This document shows positions 39,789 through 44,862 of a stretch of DNA of 64,000 nt, piece by piece. The number at the start of each line of letters is the position of its first letter. The first letter of the stretch is position 1. The position numbers were made by a program, and so were the translations under genes. Source of the stretch: Escherichia phage vB_EcoM_ULIM3; sequence record OQ850289; one strand, given 5' to 3'. Below the pieces are notes generated by a model. It was not told the origin of the DNA. It was given only the letters and a program-made list of their open reading frames with translations, and did not search any database.

Positions 39789-41570
39789 ATGAGTAAGTCA
39801 CTTTACGCAGTACCAGCAGGTCTTAATGCAGATGCTTACAAGGCATCACATATATATCAGTATCCAGATGCTACGCAATATCTTATGTTGAACCTGACAC
39901 CACGTAGTGACAAATGGTTTAACAGCCCCTTAGCAATTGATGGTGTAGTAGCTTTTGGTATTCAACGTTTCGTTAAAGATTACTTGATAGACCACTGGAA
40001 CGCCACTTTCTTTGAACGTGATAAAAAAGAAGCCATTGATGAAATCTTAGAAGTCATGAATGGTGTTCTGGGTAAAGATGCTATCAGTCGAGAGCATTGG
40101 GAAGCACTTCACGACTTAGGTTATCTACCAGTTGAAGTATACGCTGTAGAAGAAGGTACAGTTGTCCCTATGCGTGTCCCAATGATTGTTTTCCAGAACA
40201 CTGTTTCAGGTTTCCATTGGGTAGCAGGTTATCTGGAAGATGCTTTCTCTGCTGAGATTTGGAAGGCTTGTACCATTGCAACTATTGCATTGCACTACAA
40301 ACGTATCTGTAAGAAGTGGGCTGACCTTACTTGTGACAATGACTTACATTTACCTTATCAGTGCCATGATTTTGCTATGCGTGGTATGTCCGGCTTTACT
40401 GATGACGCATTTAATGCTGTAGGTCACTTAACCAGCTTTAAAGGGACTGATAGCTTCCCTGCTGTGTACACAGCTAAACGCATCTATGGACAGTCCTACC
40501 CAATTTCTGATATTGGTAGTTCTGTACCAGCCACTGAACACTCTGTCATGTGTGCAAACATTGCTTGGGAAGGTGGTAATGAGTTGATTGAAGAGGAAAG
40601 ACGCTTTAAAGGTGAGTTACAAACCTTCCGTCGTTTCTTAACAGAAACTTACCCAACTGGTATTGCAAGTATTGTTTCAGATACTTATAACTTCTGGAGA
40701 ACTGTGTCAGAAATCTTACCAGCACTCCGTAAAGAAATTATGGAACGTGATGGTAAACTGGTAATTCGCCCTGACTCTGGAGACCCTGTACATATTGTCA
40801 CAGGTTATAAAGCAATCCACTTAGAGTGTGCTAAAAAGGCTTATTACGAGCACCTAAGCAAGCTTGAAGCCAGCGACACAATGTTGAATGCTGTTCTGAA
40901 CATGAAGCTTGAAAACATCAACTATGGTGTTGCTGGATGGCTACTGTCAGAAGGCTACGAAATGGTTGTTGACAGAGAAGACTTTGAAGTTGCTGATACA
41001 GTGCTGTTGAAAAACGCTTATATGGTTGGCTCTGCAAACGTTGTAACACGTCCTGTAGCGGAGATTGATGGAGCTATCAAGACACTGTATAACATCTTTG
41101 GAGGAACTATCAACTCTAAAGGTTTTAAAGTACTGGATGAGCATATCGGGCTTATTTATGGCGACTCTATCACGTTGGAACGTGCAAACGAAATACTGAA
41201 GCGTTTGTATGAAATGGGTTTTGCAAGCTCTAACGTAGTGTTTGGTGTAGGTTCTTACACTTACCAGTACATGACTCGTGACACCTTTGCATTTGCTGTC
41301 AAAGCAACTCTTGCAAGCATTGGTGGTAAAGAGATTATGCTTGCAAAAGACCCTAAAACAGATAGTGGTGTTAAGAAGTCTGCTTTTGGTGGTGTAGCAC
41401 CTATGTGGGATGGTGAAAATCTGAAAGCTGTCGATGGCTATGGGTTCCAGAGCTTTGCAGATGCACTTGAACACCCAGCTTGTGCTTTACGTCTAGTCTT
41501 TAGCGACTCTGAGCAGTTCGGCTACACGACTCTTGGTGATATTCGAAATAATATTGACAAGCAGCTTTAA
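39789..41570 (+). CDS. nadV: nicotinamide phosphoribosyltransferase family protein
   Basis: 593 aa; size and overall similarity to NAMPT/NadV-type enzymes; gene symbol tentative. Confidence 0.7.
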   Translation: MSKSLYAVPAGLNADAYKASHIYQYPDATQYLMLNLTPRSDKWFNSPLAIDGVVAFGIQRFVKDYLIDHWNATFFERDKKEAIDEILEVMNGVLGKDAISREHWEALHDLGYLPVEVYAVEEGTVVPMRVPMIVFQNTVSGFHWVAGYLEDAFSAEIWKACTIATIALHYKRICKKWADLTCDNDLHLPYQCHDFAMRGMSGFTDDAFNAVGHLTSFKGTDSFPAVYTAKRIYGQSYPISDIGSSVPATEHSVMCANIAWEGGNELIEEERRFKGELQTFRRFLTETYPTGIASIVSDTYNFWRTVSEILPALRKEIMERDGKLVIRPDSGDPVHIVTGYKAIHLECAKKAYYEHLSKLEASDTMLNAVLNMKLENINYGVAGWLLSEGYEMVVDREDFEVADTVLLKNAYMVGSANVVTRPVAEIDGAIKTLYNIFGGTINSKGFKVLDEHIGLIYGDSITLERANEILKRLYEMGFASSNVVFGVGSYTYQYMTRDTFAFAVKATLASIGGKEIMLAKDPKTDSGVKKSAFGGVAPMWDGENLKAVDGYGFQSFADALEHPACALRLVFSDSEQFGYTTLGDIRNNIDKQL

Positions 41571-41584
41571 AAGTATATGATAAG

Positions 41585-41608
41585 AGGCTCCTACGGGAGC
41601 CTTTTTAA
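41585..41608 (+). terminator. intrinsic terminator
   Basis: GAGGCTCC-TAC-GGGAGCCTT followed by TTTT. Confidence 0.7.
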
Positions 41609-41968: not shown

Positions 41969-42309
41969 AAATTATGAAAATCAAAGAGATGAACATCAAC
42001 ATTGTCTTAGAAGAGCGTTGGGAGAACATCAAGAAACCTGAAAATGGTCATAAGCTCCTTAACAAAATTTTAGTAGCAGCTAAAGAAGAACTGACTGGTA
42101 AGATTGCAGCAGCAATCACAATAAAGGTCTGTGTAAAAGGTCTTCCAGACAATCACCAATTTGCACTTGACGAGTTTAAAGAAAGCTTCTACAATCCAAA
42201 CAAACAGATGCTTGAAAGTAACTTTGCAGTGTCTACAAGTATTGTCCATGACAGAAGCTTTATCCTTTACAAGAATATGAGAGGTGAGTCATGCAAGCAT
42301 ATTGGATAG
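41962..42309 (+). CDS. hypothetical protein
   Basis: 115 aa ORF. Confidence 0.5.
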   Translation: MVKIMKIKEMNINIVLEERWENIKKPENGHKLLNKILVAAKEELTGKIAAAITIKVCVKGLPDNHQFALDEFKESFYNPNKQMLESNFAVSTSIVHDRSFILYKNMRGESCKHIG

Positions 42310-42467
42310 AAATTCTACTGTCACTTGGTAGCGTAGCAGTATTTGTTTATCTTCTTTGTAAGTACTATGCAGAGCACAAAAAATGTGACTACTGTAATGG
42401 AGAAGGTTATACAAGAGCAGGTTGCTGCCCTATGTGTGGTGGTTCTGGTAAAATGTTTAATAAGTGA
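42291..42467 (+). CDS. small membrane-anchored protein with two CxxCxGxG (DnaJ-type zinc finger-like) motifs
   Basis: 58 aa ORF below track cutoff; GAGGTGA SD; TM segment then CDYCNGEG and CPMCGGSG. Confidence 0.4.
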   Translation: MQAYWIEILLSLGSVAVFVYLLCKYYAEHKKCDYCNGEGYTRAGCCPMCGGSGKMFNK

Positions 42468-42495
42468 TTTAACAGTAAACTAAGAGGAAAGTATT

Positions 42496-44862
42496 ATGCG
42501 CATGGTAAACGACCACGCAGAAGTGATTAAGAGTTCAACTTCTTTAGAGACGTCTCAAGCACAGATTACAATGACACCTGAAATGTTCAGCCTTTTGAGT
42601 TCTGGTGTATATACCTTTAAAGAAAGGGCAGTTATTCGTGAACTGTCATGTAACGCAGTAGATGCTCAGAAAGAAGCTGGAAAAGAGAACATCCCATTCC
42701 ATGTGCATTTACCTACTCGTTTTGAGCCTTACTTTGAAGTTCGTGATTTTGGAACTGGATTAACTCATGACAAAGTTATGAGCTTGTACCTAAACTACGG
42801 GGCTTCTACAAAGAATGACTCCAATGACTACATTGGTGCAATGGGTATCGGCTCAAAGTCACCATTTGCAATTGCTCAGTCATTCACAGTATCTAGCTAT
42901 GTTGATGGTGTTGTTAATAAGTACTCTGTTTACCTTGAGAATGGTATCCCTCAAGTAACTAAGCTGACAACTAACCCAACAAAAGAACCTAATGGTTTAG
43001 CTGTACGTGTGGCAGTTGCTGACCACCGTATCTCAAAGTTCTTTGAAGAAGCTGGTAATGTATACTCATACTTTGCTGTAAAACCAGAAAGTAATATTGT
43101 GTACGACGATGTATTAGCAGATATGAACGTCATTGCCCGTGAAGAGGGTGTTTATGATGCCATGATTCATAAGCAAAGTTGGCGTTCTAGTGGTAACAGG
43201 ACAGAGTTTAATGTGGTGATGGGTAACATTGCCTACCCTGTTAACATGGAAGCATTACTTGGTGATGACTTCTTCAAAGTATTGCCAGAATTTTTCCGTA
43301 GGAGCGTAGACCTTGTAAACATCTACATGCCTATTGGTTCAGTTGCTATTGCAGCTTCTCGTGAAGCATTGCAGATGAATGACACGACAAAAAATGTTAT
43401 CATTGAGGCTACTAAAAAGATAACTGAAGCCATTACAAAGGATGTTATCAAGAAAGTTAATAGCCAACCTACACTTATGGATGCTGCACAGGCTTATGCA
43501 GAGTTACGTTTGAACTCACGAGAAATGTTTAATGCTGTGTGTCCAAAGCTAGAGTGGGGAGGTGTTAAGCTTGACTCTCTGGAAGAAGAATTACTAAACA
43601 TTCGTCGTGGGATTATCTACGCAGAAGACGGCTCAGTCATTTATGAACGTGATGGTAAAGGTAATATTAAGGTTGATAGGAACGGAAACAATATACCTAA
43701 AGTGGACTACCTATACAATCCAGTTGCTTATGTCAAGTTCAACTCTTTAGAGAGTAAGATTCGTGCAACAGCACTTTCCTACACTCAAGAGGCAAGTATG
43801 TTCAATATCTTTGGCGCAATGCGTAAAAGCCAAATTGAACAGTTTTTGTTCGTGATTAATGACCGTCGCAATAAAAACGGTACTGAGAAGACTGTAGGAC
43901 GCAATCAAATCTTGCGTGGTGCATGTCGAGACTACGCTAACGAGTCAGGTCTGTTCCACAGATACAATGGTATTGTGTTTGTATTCTCGACTGAAAAAGA
44001 GTTAGATGATTTAATCAATCTACACAAACTTGATAAAAGCTTGTTAAAGATTGTGAAGATGTCTGATAAGGAACATCACTATCAGCGTAAAGAAGCTGTA
44101 AGAGGTGTTGTAAAACTCTGGAAAGCTGTTCCAGCAGAAGGTGTAGCTTCCTATAAAGAGGTTTCAGAGGACTTTGATACAATTGAAGAGCCTCAACTTT
44201 ATATCAAGGCAGTAGGTGACACTGTTGATGGCGAATGTTTTTGCTCATCTCCAGAAGATGTAGCCAAGTCAGTTGCTAATGTTACAGGGAAGACAGTCTA
44301 TGTTTTCCGAAAAGCAAATTGGAAAAAGATACCAGAAGACTGGATTGAAGTAGATGAGAAACTCTTGAACGACAGCTTAACTGATGTTCATTGGATTAAT
44401 CATAACAGGTATATGACACGCATCTACATGAATGGTGTTCTTGACCTTACAAGTAGCTGGATTATTGCCAGAAACTTTACATTCAATAATAGGAAGATTT
44501 CTCGTGGTTATTGCTATTCACGGGATACAAACAAAACTATCTTCCTAGAAGGTAATGAAGAGGCTGTAGAGGCAATGTTCGGTAAAATCCAATACGTTGC
44601 TGCACCGTTTGCATACACTTATACTATTAGTGTATTGAAAACTTTGAAAGACTGTCTTGACAATGATACAAAGCTTTACAAGAAAATTAAGAAAGCTGGT
44701 GACCGTATGGTCATTAAGGTGACAAACTACCTTTCAAAAAGAAAACAAGAAAACTTCTTGCTTTCTCATTTAGATTGGAATAAAGTGTCACCCATCGAAG
44801 TGAGTAAGTTCTTAGGCTTTGATGTAAAATGTGTTCCAGAAGGGACTACAATTTACGATTAA
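42496..44862 (+). CDS. rIIA: rIIA-like protein
   Basis: 788 aa; N-terminal region collinear with T4 rIIA (FSLLSSGVYT, RELSCNAVDA, RDFGTGL, NDYIGAMGIGSKSPF). Confidence 0.85.
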   Translation: MRMVNDHAEVIKSSTSLETSQAQITMTPEMFSLLSSGVYTFKERAVIRELSCNAVDAQKEAGKENIPFHVHLPTRFEPYFEVRDFGTGLTHDKVMSLYLNYGASTKNDSNDYIGAMGIGSKSPFAIAQSFTVSSYVDGVVNKYSVYLENGIPQVTKLTTNPTKEPNGLAVRVAVADHRISKFFEEAGNVYSYFAVKPESNIVYDDVLADMNVIAREEGVYDAMIHKQSWRSSGNRTEFNVVMGNIAYPVNMEALLGDDFFKVLPEFFRRSVDLVNIYMPIGSVAIAASREALQMNDTTKNVIIEATKKITEAITKDVIKKVNSQPTLMDAAQAYAELRLNSREMFNAVCPKLEWGGVKLDSLEEELLNIRRGIIYAEDGSVIYERDGKGNIKVDRNGNNIPKVDYLYNPVAYVKFNSLESKIRATALSYTQEASMFNIFGAMRKSQIEQFLFVINDRRNKNGTEKTVGRNQILRGACRDYANESGLFHRYNGIVFVFSTEKELDDLINLHKLDKSLLKIVKMSDKEHHYQRKEAVRGVVKLWKAVPAEGVASYKEVSEDFDTIEEPQLYIKAVGDTVDGECFCSSPEDVAKSVANVTGKTVYVFRKANWKKIPEDWIEVDEKLLNDSLTDVHWINHNRYMTRIYMNGVLDLTSSWIIARNFTFNNRKISRGYCYSRDTNKTIFLEGNEEAVEAMFGKIQYVAAPFAYTYTISVLKTLKDCLDNDTKLYKKIKKAGDRMVIKVTNYLSKRKQENFLLSHLDWNKVSPIEVSKFLGFDVKCVPEGTTIYD

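What the first reader, a model, noticed from the sequence alone, without database searches (positions are those of the whole stretch)
42291..42467. Unannotated 58 aa ORF encoding a membrane-anchored mini DnaJ-type zinc finger
Below the ORF-track cutoff but with a good SD (GAGGTGA): one TM helix followed by two CxxCxGxG repeats (CDYCNGEG, CPMCGGSG), the signature of the DnaJ zinc-finger domain. Sits immediately upstream of rIIA and could be a chaperone-mimicking or membrane-associated host-interaction peptide.
Basis: seen in the sequence. Interest (0 to 1): 0.4.

Follow-up and report, generated by a model that had tools for sequence, protein, structure and literature searches.

The report
Phage membrane-anchored mini zinc-finger protein
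A 58-residue gene just upstream of rIIA in this Felix O1-like phage is real and strongly conserved, and encodes one membrane helix plus a single DnaJ/anti-TRAP-type zinc knuckle; public genomes already annotate it as a hypothetical membrane protein, it is dispensable in laboratory screens, and its function is unknown.

Summary
The ORF at 42291-42467 (+) is exactly as described. It has a GAGGTGA Shine-Dalgarno, one hydrophobic helix (residues 5-23) and two CxxCxGxG motifs, the only two in all six frames of the 64-kb window.

The window is a Felixounavirus. The gene is intact in 273 of 274 matching phage records and is under strong purifying selection (dN/dS about 0.06). It keeps its place (Namat/NAMPT, 111-aa gene, mini gene, rIIA) in three Ounavirinae genera. 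It also occurs in RB49-like T4-type phages, there next to nrdH.

A family profile matches the E. coli DnaJ cysteine-rich domain (E=4e-12) and anti-TRAP (E=2e-5). The AlphaFold model superposes best on anti-TRAP. The protein is therefore half a DnaJ zinc domain: one Zn(Cys)4 centre and no J domain. Charge distribution predicts an N-out/C-in topology.

It is not "unannotated": relatives list it as a (membrane/hypothetical) protein, in phrog_3931. Published knockout data for the identical Bas63 gene 83 show it is non-essential. They also show it is not needed for rIIA/B-dependent escape from QatABCD.

My best reading is an accessory, membrane-tethered zinc-knuckle protein binder in a counter-defence gene neighbourhood. 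The mechanism is inferred, not shown. Interest is modest.

The parts
42281..42287 (+). Shine-Dalgarno GAGGTGA of the mini gene. It lies inside the 3' end of the upstream 111-aa gene.
   Evidence: An SD-like purine run (GGAGA/GGAGAA, GAGGG) is present at the same place in Mooglevirus, Suspvirus and RB49-like homologues.
42291..42467 (+). CDS of the 58-aa membrane-anchored zinc-knuckle protein (phrog_3931; identical in protein sequence to Bas63 gene 83).
42291..42309 (+). 19-nt overlap (ATGCAAGCATATTGGATAG) between the mini gene start and the stop of the upstream 111-aa gene. Translational coupling is likely.
   Evidence: The same 19-nt overlap is seen in Felixouna-, Moogle- and Suspvirus and in metagenomic relatives.
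42303..42359 (+). Predicted transmembrane helix, residues 5-23 (WIEILLSLGSVAVFVYLLC). It contains the family-invariant Glu7 (42309-42311); Ser11 is conserved in the closer relatives.
   Evidence: Mean KD 2.11. AF2 places a helix at residues 4-27. E7 is invariant in 14 diverse relatives. There is no K/R N-terminal of the helix in any of the 14, and 1-6 K/R C-terminal of it.
42384..42407 (+). First CxxCxGxG motif, CDYCNGEG (C32, C35, G37, G39).
   Evidence: C32, C35, G37 and G39 are invariant in the 14-sequence family alignment; SUSP1 alone has D at G39.
42426..42449 (+). Second CxxCxGxG motif, CPMCGGSG (C46, C49, G51, G53). It is preceded by the nearly invariant extra Cys45 (42423-42425).
   Evidence: The C32-C46 spacing is 14 residues, as in anti-TRAP and DnaJ repeats 3-4.
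41974..42309 (+). Upstream overlapping gene, 111 aa (phrog_4262, function unknown). It is the conserved partner of the mini gene in Ounavirinae.
   Evidence: The AF2 model resembles the IF3 C-terminal fold only weakly.
41554..41605 (+). Near-consensus sigma-70-like promoter (TTGACA-16-TATGAT, 41554-41581) abutting the terminator-like hairpin (41582-41605) after the Namat/NAMPT gene. It is the probable start of the transcription unit orf114-orf111-mini-rIIA.
   Evidence: A terminator is annotated at the same place in phage Tribble and phage Mordin. Consensus scan only; not evidence of function.
42496..44862 (+). rIIA (788 aa), 28 nt downstream. This is context, not a demonstrated functional partner.
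39789..41570 (+). [quoted passage not shown] It is the upstream counter-defence neighbour.
   Evidence: preprints 10.1101/2024.02.11.579819 and 10.1101/2024.10.10.617714.

Best explanation
The ORF is a real, expressed-type accessory gene of Ounavirinae phages, and also of RB49-like T4-type phages. It encodes a bitopic inner-membrane protein.

The protein has a very short acidic N-terminus facing the periplasm, then one transmembrane helix carrying an invariant Glu. After a linker of only 3-8 residues comes a single Zn(Cys)4 knuckle on the cytoplasmic face. The knuckle is built from two CxxCxGxG repeats 14 residues apart. This is the one-centre version of the DnaJ cysteine-rich domain, as in anti-TRAP.

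The most likely mechanism is that the membrane-tethered zinc knuckle, possibly together with the conserved polar face of the helix, binds a host or phage protein at the inner membrane. It would sequester or modulate that protein, in the way anti-TRAP and the J-domain-less DnaJ-like zinc-finger proteins act as stoichiometric binders rather than as enzymes. That role would be conditionally useful (host takeover or counter-defence).

Shown: the gene is real, its architecture, its conservation and its dispensability. Inferred: Zn binding, topology, binder/inhibitor action and the identity of the target.
For: Coding and conserved:
- The ORF is intact in 273 of 274 matching phage records.
- Mean pairwise dN/dS is 0.06 in Felixounavirus (18 distinct nucleotide sequences) and 0.11 in the Mooglevirus+SUSP1 group (7 distinct sequences). 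The window versus phage Tribble shows 14 synonymous and 1 non-synonymous difference.
- Variation is biased to the third codon position: 7/3/27.
- The SD is conserved.

Architecture:
- The TM window scores KD 2.0-3.1 in all 14 relatives, with zero K/R on the N side and 1-6 K/R on the C side.
- Invariant residues are M1, E7, C32, C35, G37, G39, C46, C49, G51 and G53.

Zinc-finger kinship:
- The family profile against PDB gives DnaJ CR domain 1EXK at E=3.9e-12 (both halves) and B. licheniformis anti-TRAP 3lcz at E=1.7e-5, gapless over 26 residues. B. subtilis anti-TRAP scores E=0.002.
- The AF2 model has pLDDT 76.6. Its best PDB superpositions are anti-TRAP, with rmsd 1.1-1.5 A over 23-29 residues and probability 0.85-0.97.
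- tblastn also picks up the Zn-finger region of phage-encoded bona fide DnaJ proteins.

Accessory role:
- Bas63 gene 83 has an identical protein. Its PhageMaP fitness scores lie between -0.17 and +1.37 in the six conditions I read: S17, MG1655, TerY-P, AVAST type 4, one sheet I did not identify by name in which g79/g80 are depleted, and qatABCD.

Neighbourhood:
- The gene lies between the NARP1 NAD+-reconstitution genes and rIIA/B, both validated counter-defence modules in Bas63.

Precedent:
- Plant FIP has the same layout (hydrophobic anchor plus two CxxCxGxG repeats, no J domain) and binds FtsH5 (PMC5915565).
Against: - There is no direct evidence of translation, Zn binding, membrane insertion or any partner.
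- The Foldseek E-values for the 29-residue domain are not significant on their own (0.1-0.5).
- Pfam DnaJ_CXXCXGXG (15.6 versus 32.7 bits) and NCBIfam RtpA (11 versus 65 bits) are far below their cut-offs.
- Net charge after the helix is negative in Moogle- and Suspvirus versions.
- Many bacterial CxxCxGxG-repeat proteins carry signal peptides or lipoboxes. An exported domain is therefore not excluded.
- No defence-specific phenotype for g83 was seen in the PhageMaP sheets I read, and the authors do not mention the gene.
- The gene neighbours differ between phage families, so context gives no target.
Confidence: 0.5

Rival explanations
1. Opposite topology. The helix acts as an uncleaved signal anchor that exports the Cys-rich tail to the periplasm. 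There the five cysteines would form disulfides or bind metal, and the protein would act on the envelope (superinfection exclusion, lysis timing or lysis inhibition), in keeping with the historical 'rapid lysis' neighbourhood.
For: Many bacterial proteins found with the family profile combine a classical signal peptide or lipobox with CxxCxGxG repeats, e.g. P0049, P0067, P0068, P0074 and P0142. The segment after the helix has net negative charge in Moogle- and Suspvirus versions. The gene lies next to rIIA/rIIB.
Against: None of 14 family members has a K/R in the N-terminal segment, which a Sec-type signal needs. All have an acidic residue there and K/R after the helix. The phage family is distinct from the signal-peptide proteins in this respect. 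The closest structural relatives (DnaJ, anti-TRAP) are cytoplasmic Zn proteins. RB49-like homologues are not near rII or lysis genes.
Confidence: 0.2
2. Redox role. The cysteine-rich knuckle would work as a thiol-disulfide oxidoreductase or redox sensor at the membrane, as reported for some plant membrane DnaJ-like zinc-finger proteins. In RB49-like phages it could work together with the adjacent NrdH-type glutaredoxin.
For: A fifth Cys (C45) directly precedes the second motif and is nearly invariant. In three diverged RB49-like contexts the gene overlaps the 3' end of a CYGC glutaredoxin gene by 11 nt. The statement that plant LQY1/CYO1-type proteins have disulfide isomerase activity rests on my own knowledge, not on a tool result.
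Against: C45 is replaced by Pro in P0010, P0057 and P0106. In Ounavirinae the upstream partner is not a redoxin: hhalign against the NrdH profile gives probability 0.2, and the protein has no CxxC. The G-x-G residues, which have a structural role in the Zn fold, are as invariant as the cysteines.
Confidence: 0.1
3. Third component of the rII system. The mini protein would anchor or regulate rIIA/rIIB at the membrane, and would be needed for their protective function.
For: The position immediately upstream of rIIA is conserved in three Ounavirinae genera. rII proteins are described in the records as membrane integrity protectors.
Against: On the QatABCD host, Bas63 g83 disruption scores +0.77/+0.66/+0.81. 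rIIA scores -1.26/-1.30/-1.61 and rIIB scores -1.05/-2.46/-2.45. T4 rIIA.1, in the same slot, is an unrelated soluble protein. The Ounavirinae phage LPML1 has an unrelated 52-aa protein there. RB49-like phages keep the mini gene about 30 kb from the genome end where T4-type rIIA lies.
Confidence: 0.07
4. Chance ORF or non-coding spacer. On this reading the motifs are coincidental and the region serves only as the rIIA leader.
For: The ORF is short (58 aa) and no curated family reaches its threshold.
Against: dN/dS is 0.06-0.11 and variation is biased to third codon positions. The reading frame is kept down to 40-57% protein identity in other genera and in another phage family. Both CxxCxGxG motifs of the whole window fall in this ORF, against 0.13 expected per window. 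The full-length match to phrog_3931 has E=9e-34.
Confidence: 0.01

Closest known systems
Anti-TRAP (RtpA/AT) of Bacillus, 53 aa (PDB 2bx9, 3lcz, 3ld0)
   Same: It is a very small protein built around a single Zn(Cys)4 centre. The centre is formed by two DnaJ-like Cys motifs whose first cysteines are 14 residues apart. The alignment to the family profile is gapless (E=1.7e-5), and anti-TRAP is the best structural superposition of the AF2 model. It acts as a stoichiometric protein binder, not as a chaperone (PMC2896485).
   Different: Anti-TRAP is soluble. According to PMC2896485 it forms trimers and dodecamers, and its target is TRAP, which enterobacteria lack. The phage protein has an N-terminal transmembrane helix, only 5 residues after the second motif, and scores 11 bits against the 65-bit NCBIfam RtpA cut-off.
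Cysteine-rich (zinc-finger) domain of type I DnaJ/Hsp40 (Pfam PF00684; PDB 1EXK)
   Same: The CxxCxGxG repeat is identical. The family profile matches both halves of the E. coli domain (E=3.9e-12). The spacing equals that of repeats 3-4.
   Different: DnaJ has four repeats forming two interleaved Zn centres (1+4 and 2+3), and these are embedded between the J/G-F region and the C-terminal substrate-binding domains. Here there are two repeats, no J domain, no client-binding domains and a membrane anchor. The Pfam score is 15.6 against a cut-off of 32.7.
J-domain-less membrane-anchored DnaJ-like zinc-finger proteins of chloroplasts (FIP; also LQY1, CYO1/SCO2, HCF222, OR)
   Same: The domain order is the same as in FIP: a hydrophobic membrane anchor followed by a C4 zinc finger with two CxxCxGxG repeats and no J domain. 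FIP binds the membrane protease FtsH5 (PMC5915565).
   Different: These are eukaryotic, transit-peptide-bearing and larger. No homology beyond the repeat has been demonstrated, and no phage or enterobacterial member has been described. The FtsH link is only an analogy.
phrog_3931 and other small uncharacterised phage Zn-knuckle proteins (RB49 ORF046, phiEa21-4 gp117, etc.)
   Same: The window protein is a full-length member of phrog_3931 (E=9e-34), as is RB49 ORF046 (E=4e-10). BFVD holds many 50-130-aa phage proteins with the same knuckle.
   Different: None has a known function, so this comparison gives a family name but no mechanism.

Membership tests
phrog_3931 (phage protein family, function unknown) | Full-length match to the family HMM | tested here: met
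   E=9.2e-34, 116 bits, residues 1-58 on profile positions 1-59 of 59. Moogle-, Susp- and RB49 versions also match.
DnaJ cysteine-rich domain (Pfam PF00684 DnaJ_CXXCXGXG) | CxxCxGxG repeat consensus | tested here: met
   Two exact copies are present. C32, C35, G37, G39, C46, C49, G51 and G53 are invariant in 14 relatives.
DnaJ cysteine-rich domain (Pfam PF00684 DnaJ_CXXCXGXG) | Four repeats forming two Zn centres; score above the Pfam gathering threshold | tested here: not met
   Only two repeats are present. The score is 15.6 bits against a 32.7-bit cut-off, E=0.02, covering profile positions 37-65 of 65.
Type I DnaJ/Hsp40 co-chaperone | J domain (HPD motif) and C-terminal client-binding domains | tested here: not met
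   The protein is 58 aa and has no J-domain hit in Pfam or NCBIfam. DnaJ models match only locally over the finger, at 9-18 bits against cut-offs of 338-548 bits.
Anti-TRAP (NCBIfam NF058604 RtpA) | Single Zn(Cys)4 centre from two Cys pairs 14 residues apart | tested here: met
   The C32/C35/C46/C49 spacing is 14. The profile alignment to 3lcz is gapless at E=1.7e-5. Structural superposition gives rmsd 1.3-1.5 A over 29 residues. Zn binding itself was not tested.
Anti-TRAP (NCBIfam NF058604 RtpA) | Family score cut-off; soluble protein with a C-terminal oligomerisation helix | tested here: not met
   The score is 11 bits against a 65-bit cut-off. The protein has an N-terminal TM helix, and only 5 residues follow the second motif.
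J-less membrane-anchored DnaJ-like zinc-finger proteins (FIP type) | Hydrophobic anchor N-terminal of a two-repeat CxxCxGxG C4 finger, no J domain | tested here: met
   The FIP architecture is described in PMC5915565. This is an architectural class, not a demonstrated homologous family.
J-less membrane-anchored DnaJ-like zinc-finger proteins (FIP type) | Binding to a membrane partner such as FtsH; Zn occupancy | not testable with these tools
   This needs biochemistry or an interaction screen.
rII (rIIA/rIIB) membrane-protection system | Required for the rII-dependent phenotype; linkage conserved wherever rII occurs | tested here: not met
   Bas63 g83 is non-essential on the QatABCD host, where g84 and g85 are required. 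T4 and LPML1 have unrelated genes in this slot. RB49-like homologues are next to nrdH.
Known anti-phage defence proteins (PADLOC) | Match to any defence-system HMM | tested here: not met
   There are no hits at E<=1 for the mini protein or its two upstream neighbours.

The most novel reading that the evidence does not exclude
The protein would be a phage-encoded, membrane-tethered anti-TRAP-like inhibitor. Its single zinc knuckle, held 3-8 residues from the inner leaflet, together with the invariant Glu on the helix, would bind and neutralise a specific host inner-membrane machine. Candidates are the FtsH protease (as plant FIP binds FtsH5) or a membrane-acting abortive-infection effector. That would make it a new class of minimal counter-defence or host-takeover factor, located between the NARP1 and rII counter-defence modules.
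Probability: 0.15. Interest if true: 0.6.

Novelty: new member of a known kind. Interest (0 to 1): 0.3.

Why it matters
Small phage membrane proteins are routinely under-annotated. This one is present in hundreds of therapeutic-candidate Felix O1-like phages and in RB49-like phages, always under strong purifying selection. No record I examined names its zinc-finger nature.

Recognising it as a one-centre DnaJ/anti-TRAP-type knuckle on a membrane anchor turns a 'hypothetical membrane protein' into a testable hypothesis: Zn binding, topology, and a binding partner at the inner membrane.

The finding is not surprising in kind. J-less DnaJ-like fingers, including membrane-anchored ones, are known, and the gene is dispensable under the laboratory conditions tested so far.

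Tried and rejected
1. Homology with T4 rIIA.1, which occupies the same slot upstream of rIIA. T4 rIIA.1 is a 67-aa acidic soluble protein with no Cys motif and gave no tblastn hit.

2. A conserved 'redoxin plus knuckle' gene pair. The Ounavirinae 111-aa upstream protein is unrelated to the RB49 NrdH-type glutaredoxin (hhalign probability 0.2). It has no significant PDB sequence relative, and its AF2 model resembles the IF3 C-terminal fold only weakly.

3. Programmed frameshifting at the A6 run (42378-42383), suggested by frameshifted database entries P0003-P0007. The run reads AAGAAG in 9 of 21 Felixounavirus sequences, and the shifted entries are single-member clusters. Sequencing errors or sporadic mutants are more likely.

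4. Bacterial or prophage homologues. A scan of 185,579 species genomes with the CC[PA]xC[GNH]G[ST]GK pattern found only one trivial 12-residue match. The A3 alignment was too diverse to scan with.

5. PADLOC gave no hit. NCBIfam gave only sub-threshold local DnaJ/RtpA matches.

6. Literature. I found no paper on this protein. Only the PhageMaP knockout tables carry data for it. I read six of the condition sheets, not all of them.

7. Virion component. The Bas63 cryo-EM paper does not mention gp83.
Full report
**1.

The window carries an ORF at 42291-42467 on the + strand. It encodes MQAYWIEILLSLGSVAVFVYLLCKYYAEHKKCDYCNGEGYTRAGCCPMCGGSGKMFNK, 58 aa.

- The ATG is the first start codon after an in-frame TGA.
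- GAGGTGA sits at 42281-42287, so GAGG is 6 nt from the ATG.
- Residues 5-23 form the only strongly hydrophobic stretch, mean Kyte-Doolittle 2.11.
- The two CxxCxGxG motifs (42384-42407 and 42426-42449) are the only two in all six reading frames of the 64-kb window. Shuffled windows give 0.13 on average. Two motifs inside one 58-codon ORF is therefore not chance.

**2. What the window is, and the annotation status**

The region is 94-97% identical to many Felixounavirus (Felix O1-like, Ounavirinae) genomes. In those records the same ORF is annotated:

- 'membrane protein' in HMD-P10;
- 'Hypothetical membrane protein', citing Felix O1 NP_945023.1, in Tribble;
- 'putative membrane protein' bas63_0083 in JohannRWettstein/Bas63.

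It is a full-length member of phrog_3931, function unknown (E=9e-34). None of the records I examined mentions a zinc finger.

**3. It is a real gene**

- tblastn finds the protein in 274 phage records, with at least 80% coverage in 273.
- Nei-Gojobori dN/dS averages 0.06 among 18 distinct Felixounavirus nucleotide sequences and 0.11 among 7 distinct sequences of the Mooglevirus+SUSP1 group. The window versus phage Tribble shows 14 synonymous and 1 non-synonymous difference.
- Variable sites fall 7/3/27 on codon positions 1/2/3.
- The frame, the length (57-60 aa) and an SD-like sequence are kept at 46-57% protein identity in Mooglevirus and Suspvirus.
- A 52-59-aa version exists in RB49-like (Krischvirus-type) T4-like phages.
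- A scan of one genome per bacterial and archaeal species found no cellular homologue carrying the family's GCCPxCxGxGK signature.

**4. Anatomy**

In an alignment of 14 diverse relatives the invariant residues are M1, E7, C32, C35, G37, G39, C46, C49, G51 and G53. These are the N-terminal Glu plus the two complete CxxCxGxG motifs.

- Cys45, just before the second motif, is nearly invariant but is Pro in three sequences.
- The first cysteines of the two motifs are 14 residues apart (15-16 in a few sequences).
- The linker from the helix to the first Cys is only 3-8 residues.
- AlphaFold2 with the family alignment gives pLDDT 76.6, a helix at residues 4-27 and short hairpins after it.
- None of the 14 proteins has a Lys or Arg before the helix. 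All have an acidic residue there and 1-6 Lys/Arg after it.

By the positive-inside rule (established knowledge) this favours N-out/C-in. The knuckle would then sit on the cytoplasmic face, where a Zn(Cys)4 site is chemically plausible. This is an inference. Net charge after the helix is negative in Moogle- and Suspvirus.

**5. Kinship of the finger**

- The single sequence reaches only sub-threshold Pfam hits: DUF5351 at E=0.0024 and DnaJ_CXXCXGXG at E=0.02, 15.6 versus 32.7 bits. NCBIfam gives only local hits to DnaJ and RtpA models.
- A family profile is clearer. Against all PDB sequences the top hit is the E. coli DnaJ cysteine-rich domain 1EXK, at E=1.2e-6 with 8 sequences and 3.9e-12 with 14. 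It matches both repeat pairs, and the 3-4 pair aligns without gaps.
- Next come B. licheniformis anti-TRAP (E=1.7e-5, gapless over 26 residues), human DNAJA3, another DnaJ and B. subtilis anti-TRAP.
- Foldseek of the model against PDB ranks the three anti-TRAP entries first (rmsd 1.1-1.5 A over 23-29 residues, probability 0.85-0.97). DnaJA2, 1EXK and BSD2 follow. The E-values (0.1-0.5) are not significant for so short a domain.
- tblastn in IMG/VR also pulled out the finger region of complete phage-encoded DnaJ proteins.
- A search of 1.84 billion representatives gave 1265 hits at E<=1e-3. Most are multi-repeat CxxCxGxG proteins and DnaJs.

The 'DnaJ-type zinc finger' reading is therefore supported. 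But this is half a DnaJ domain. With two repeats only one Zn centre can form, as in anti-TRAP, and there is no J domain.

**6. Context**

In Felixouna-, Moogle- and Suspvirus the gene order is: Adps/Prs-like gene; then (in some genomes) an HNH endonuclease gene; Namat/NAMPT; (small ORF); 111-aa gene; mini gene; rIIA; rIIB. The 111-aa gene and the mini gene always overlap by the same 19 nt. That overlap suggests translational coupling.

- A near-consensus sigma-70-like promoter abuts the terminator after Namat (41554-41605). This is consistent with an early transcription unit, but it rests on a consensus scan only.
- In Bas63 the flanking modules are both validated counter-defence genes. Genes 79-80 (NARP1) act against SIR2-HerA and other systems. 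Genes 84-85 (rIIA/B) act against QatABCD.
- The linkage to rIIA is not general. T4 rIIA.1 is unrelated. The distant Ounavirinae phage LPML1 has an unrelated 52-aa soluble protein there.
- In RB49-like phages the mini gene instead overlaps the end of a CYGC glutaredoxin (nrdH) gene by 11 nt.
- The 111-aa partner is not a redoxin. Its model resembles the IF3 C-terminal fold only weakly.

**7. Experimental data from the literature**

The PhageMaP preprint (10.1101/2024.10.10.617714) made barcoded knockouts of Bas63. Its gene 83 protein is identical to the window's. Fitness scores for gene 83 were as follows.

| Condition | Gene 83 scores | Source |
|---|---|---|
| S17 | 0.25 / 0.11 / 0.48 | |
| MG1655 | 1.27 / -0.07 / -0.17 | |
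| TerY-P | 0.10 / 0.51 / 1.16 | |
| AVAST type 4 | 0.39 / 0.66 / 0.88 | |
| A sheet where g79/g80 are depleted (name not read) | 1.37 / 1.16 / 0.51 | |
| qatABCD | 0.77 / 0.66 / 0.81 | |

On the qatABCD host rIIA scored -1.26/-1.30/-1.61 and rIIB scored -1.05/-2.46/-2.45. The gene is therefore dispensable in these conditions and is not needed for the rII-dependent escape from QatABCD. The authors do not discuss it. I did not read the remaining sheets. Gene 82, the 111-aa partner, has no data.

**8. Mechanism**

Shown: a conserved small protein with one hydrophobic helix and a two-repeat DnaJ/anti-TRAP-type Cys motif. It is an accessory gene.

Inferred: one Zn(Cys)4 centre, N-out/C-in insertion, and a knuckle held against the cytoplasmic membrane surface.

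The known proteins built this way act by binding partners rather than by catalysis. Anti-TRAP binds TRAP (PMC2896485). Plant FIP, which has the same anchor-plus-two-repeat layout, binds FtsH5 (PMC5915565). I therefore consider a membrane-tethered protein binder or inhibitor that acts on a host or phage inner-membrane target the most likely mechanism. The invariant Glu7 hints that the helix itself takes part in a specific contact. I put about 0.9 on the gene and its architecture, about 0.6 on the topology and about 0.35-0.4 on the binder mechanism.

Rivals, in order of weight:

- A periplasmic, disulfide-bonded tail acting on the envelope (0.2).
- A redox function linked to glutaredoxin (0.1).
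- An rII accessory subunit (0.07, largely contradicted).
- A chance ORF (0.01).

**9. Comparison and novelty**

The protein works like anti-TRAP or FIP-type J-less zinc-finger proteins. It is not a member of the curated DnaJ or RtpA families, because it fails their cut-offs and lacks the J domain. Its formal family is phrog_3931.

BFVD shows many other small, uncharacterised phage proteins with the same knuckle, for example RB49 Q7Y3T0 and phiEa21-4 gp117. This is therefore a new, phage-borne and membrane-anchored member of a known kind, not a new kind.

Interest is modest (0.3). The annotation gain is real and the hypothesis is testable. The architecture has precedents, and the gene has no phenotype so far.

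Noticed in passing
window 42378-42383 (A6 run, codons K30-K31): Several database proteins (P0003, P0005, P0006, P0007 of 63 aa; P0004 of 41 aa) are frameshifted versions that switch between the mini-gene frame and the overlapping 46-aa +2 frame ORF (42343-42483). P0004 and P0005 switch at this A-run; P0003, P0006 and P0007 switch at other nearby positions (around codons 22-38). All are single-member clusters, and the run reads AAGAAG in 9 of 21 relatives, so these are probably sequencing errors or sporadic mutants, not programmed frameshifting.
   Followed up: partly
window 41974-42309 (+): The 111-aa gene overlapping the mini gene (phrog_4262) is very conserved (82% mean column identity across three genera) but has no family or PDB sequence match. 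Its AF2 model (pLDDT 67.7) resembles the IF3 C-terminal domain fold only weakly (best E=9e-3, TM about 0.45). It has no PhageMaP data (Bas63 gene 82).
   Followed up: partly
window 41554-41605 (+): A near-consensus sigma-70-like promoter (TTGACA-16-TATGAT) ends exactly where the terminator hairpin after the NAMPT-family gene begins. Transcripts starting there would lack the 5' arm of the hairpin. This is a compact terminator/promoter junction.
   Followed up: no
window 39789-41570 (+): The gene labelled nicotinamide phosphoribosyltransferase in most records corresponds to Bas63 gene 80. [quoted passage not shown]
   Followed up: partly
L007:2236-2653 (RB49), L047, L050, L051: In RB49-like T4-type phages the homologous mini gene always overlaps the 3' end of an NrdH-type glutaredoxin gene (CYGC active site) by 11 nt. 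It is followed by 55.2 (DUF7570) and a DEAD-like helicase gene. This context is entirely different from the one in Ounavirinae.
   Followed up: partly
L004:2680-2744, L006:2680-2743 (Mooglevirus Silverhawkium and Suspvirus SUSP1), compared with window 42468-42495: Mooglevirus Silverhawkium and Suspvirus SUSP1 have a 62-63-nt spacer between the mini gene and rIIA. It contains a TTGACA...TATA-type promoter-like sequence. The window has only 28 nt and no usable promoter, so rIIA may be transcribed differently in these genera.
   Followed up: no
Proteins P0049, P0067, P0068, P0074, P0093, P0142: A large and diverse set of bacterial proteins combines a classical signal peptide or lipobox with 2-13 CxxCxGxG repeats. 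This suggests an exported class of DnaJ-like repeat proteins. I did not find it described in the papers I searched.
   Followed up: no
Phage records MG065668.1 (Campylobacter phage A126), OK283618.1 (Listeria phage LPML1) and one Staphylococcus-labelled record: Records labelled as Campylobacter, Listeria or Staphylococcus phages carry Felixounavirus/Ounavirinae sequence. The A126 mini protein is 96.6% identical to the window's. Host labels or sample purity look doubtful.
   Followed up: no
L053:2319-2477 (phage LPML1): The slot directly upstream of rIIA holds unrelated small genes in different phages: T4 rIIA.1 (67 aa, acidic), an LPML1 52-aa soluble protein, and here the zinc-knuckle protein. 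It appears to be a variable small-gene slot.
   Followed up: partly
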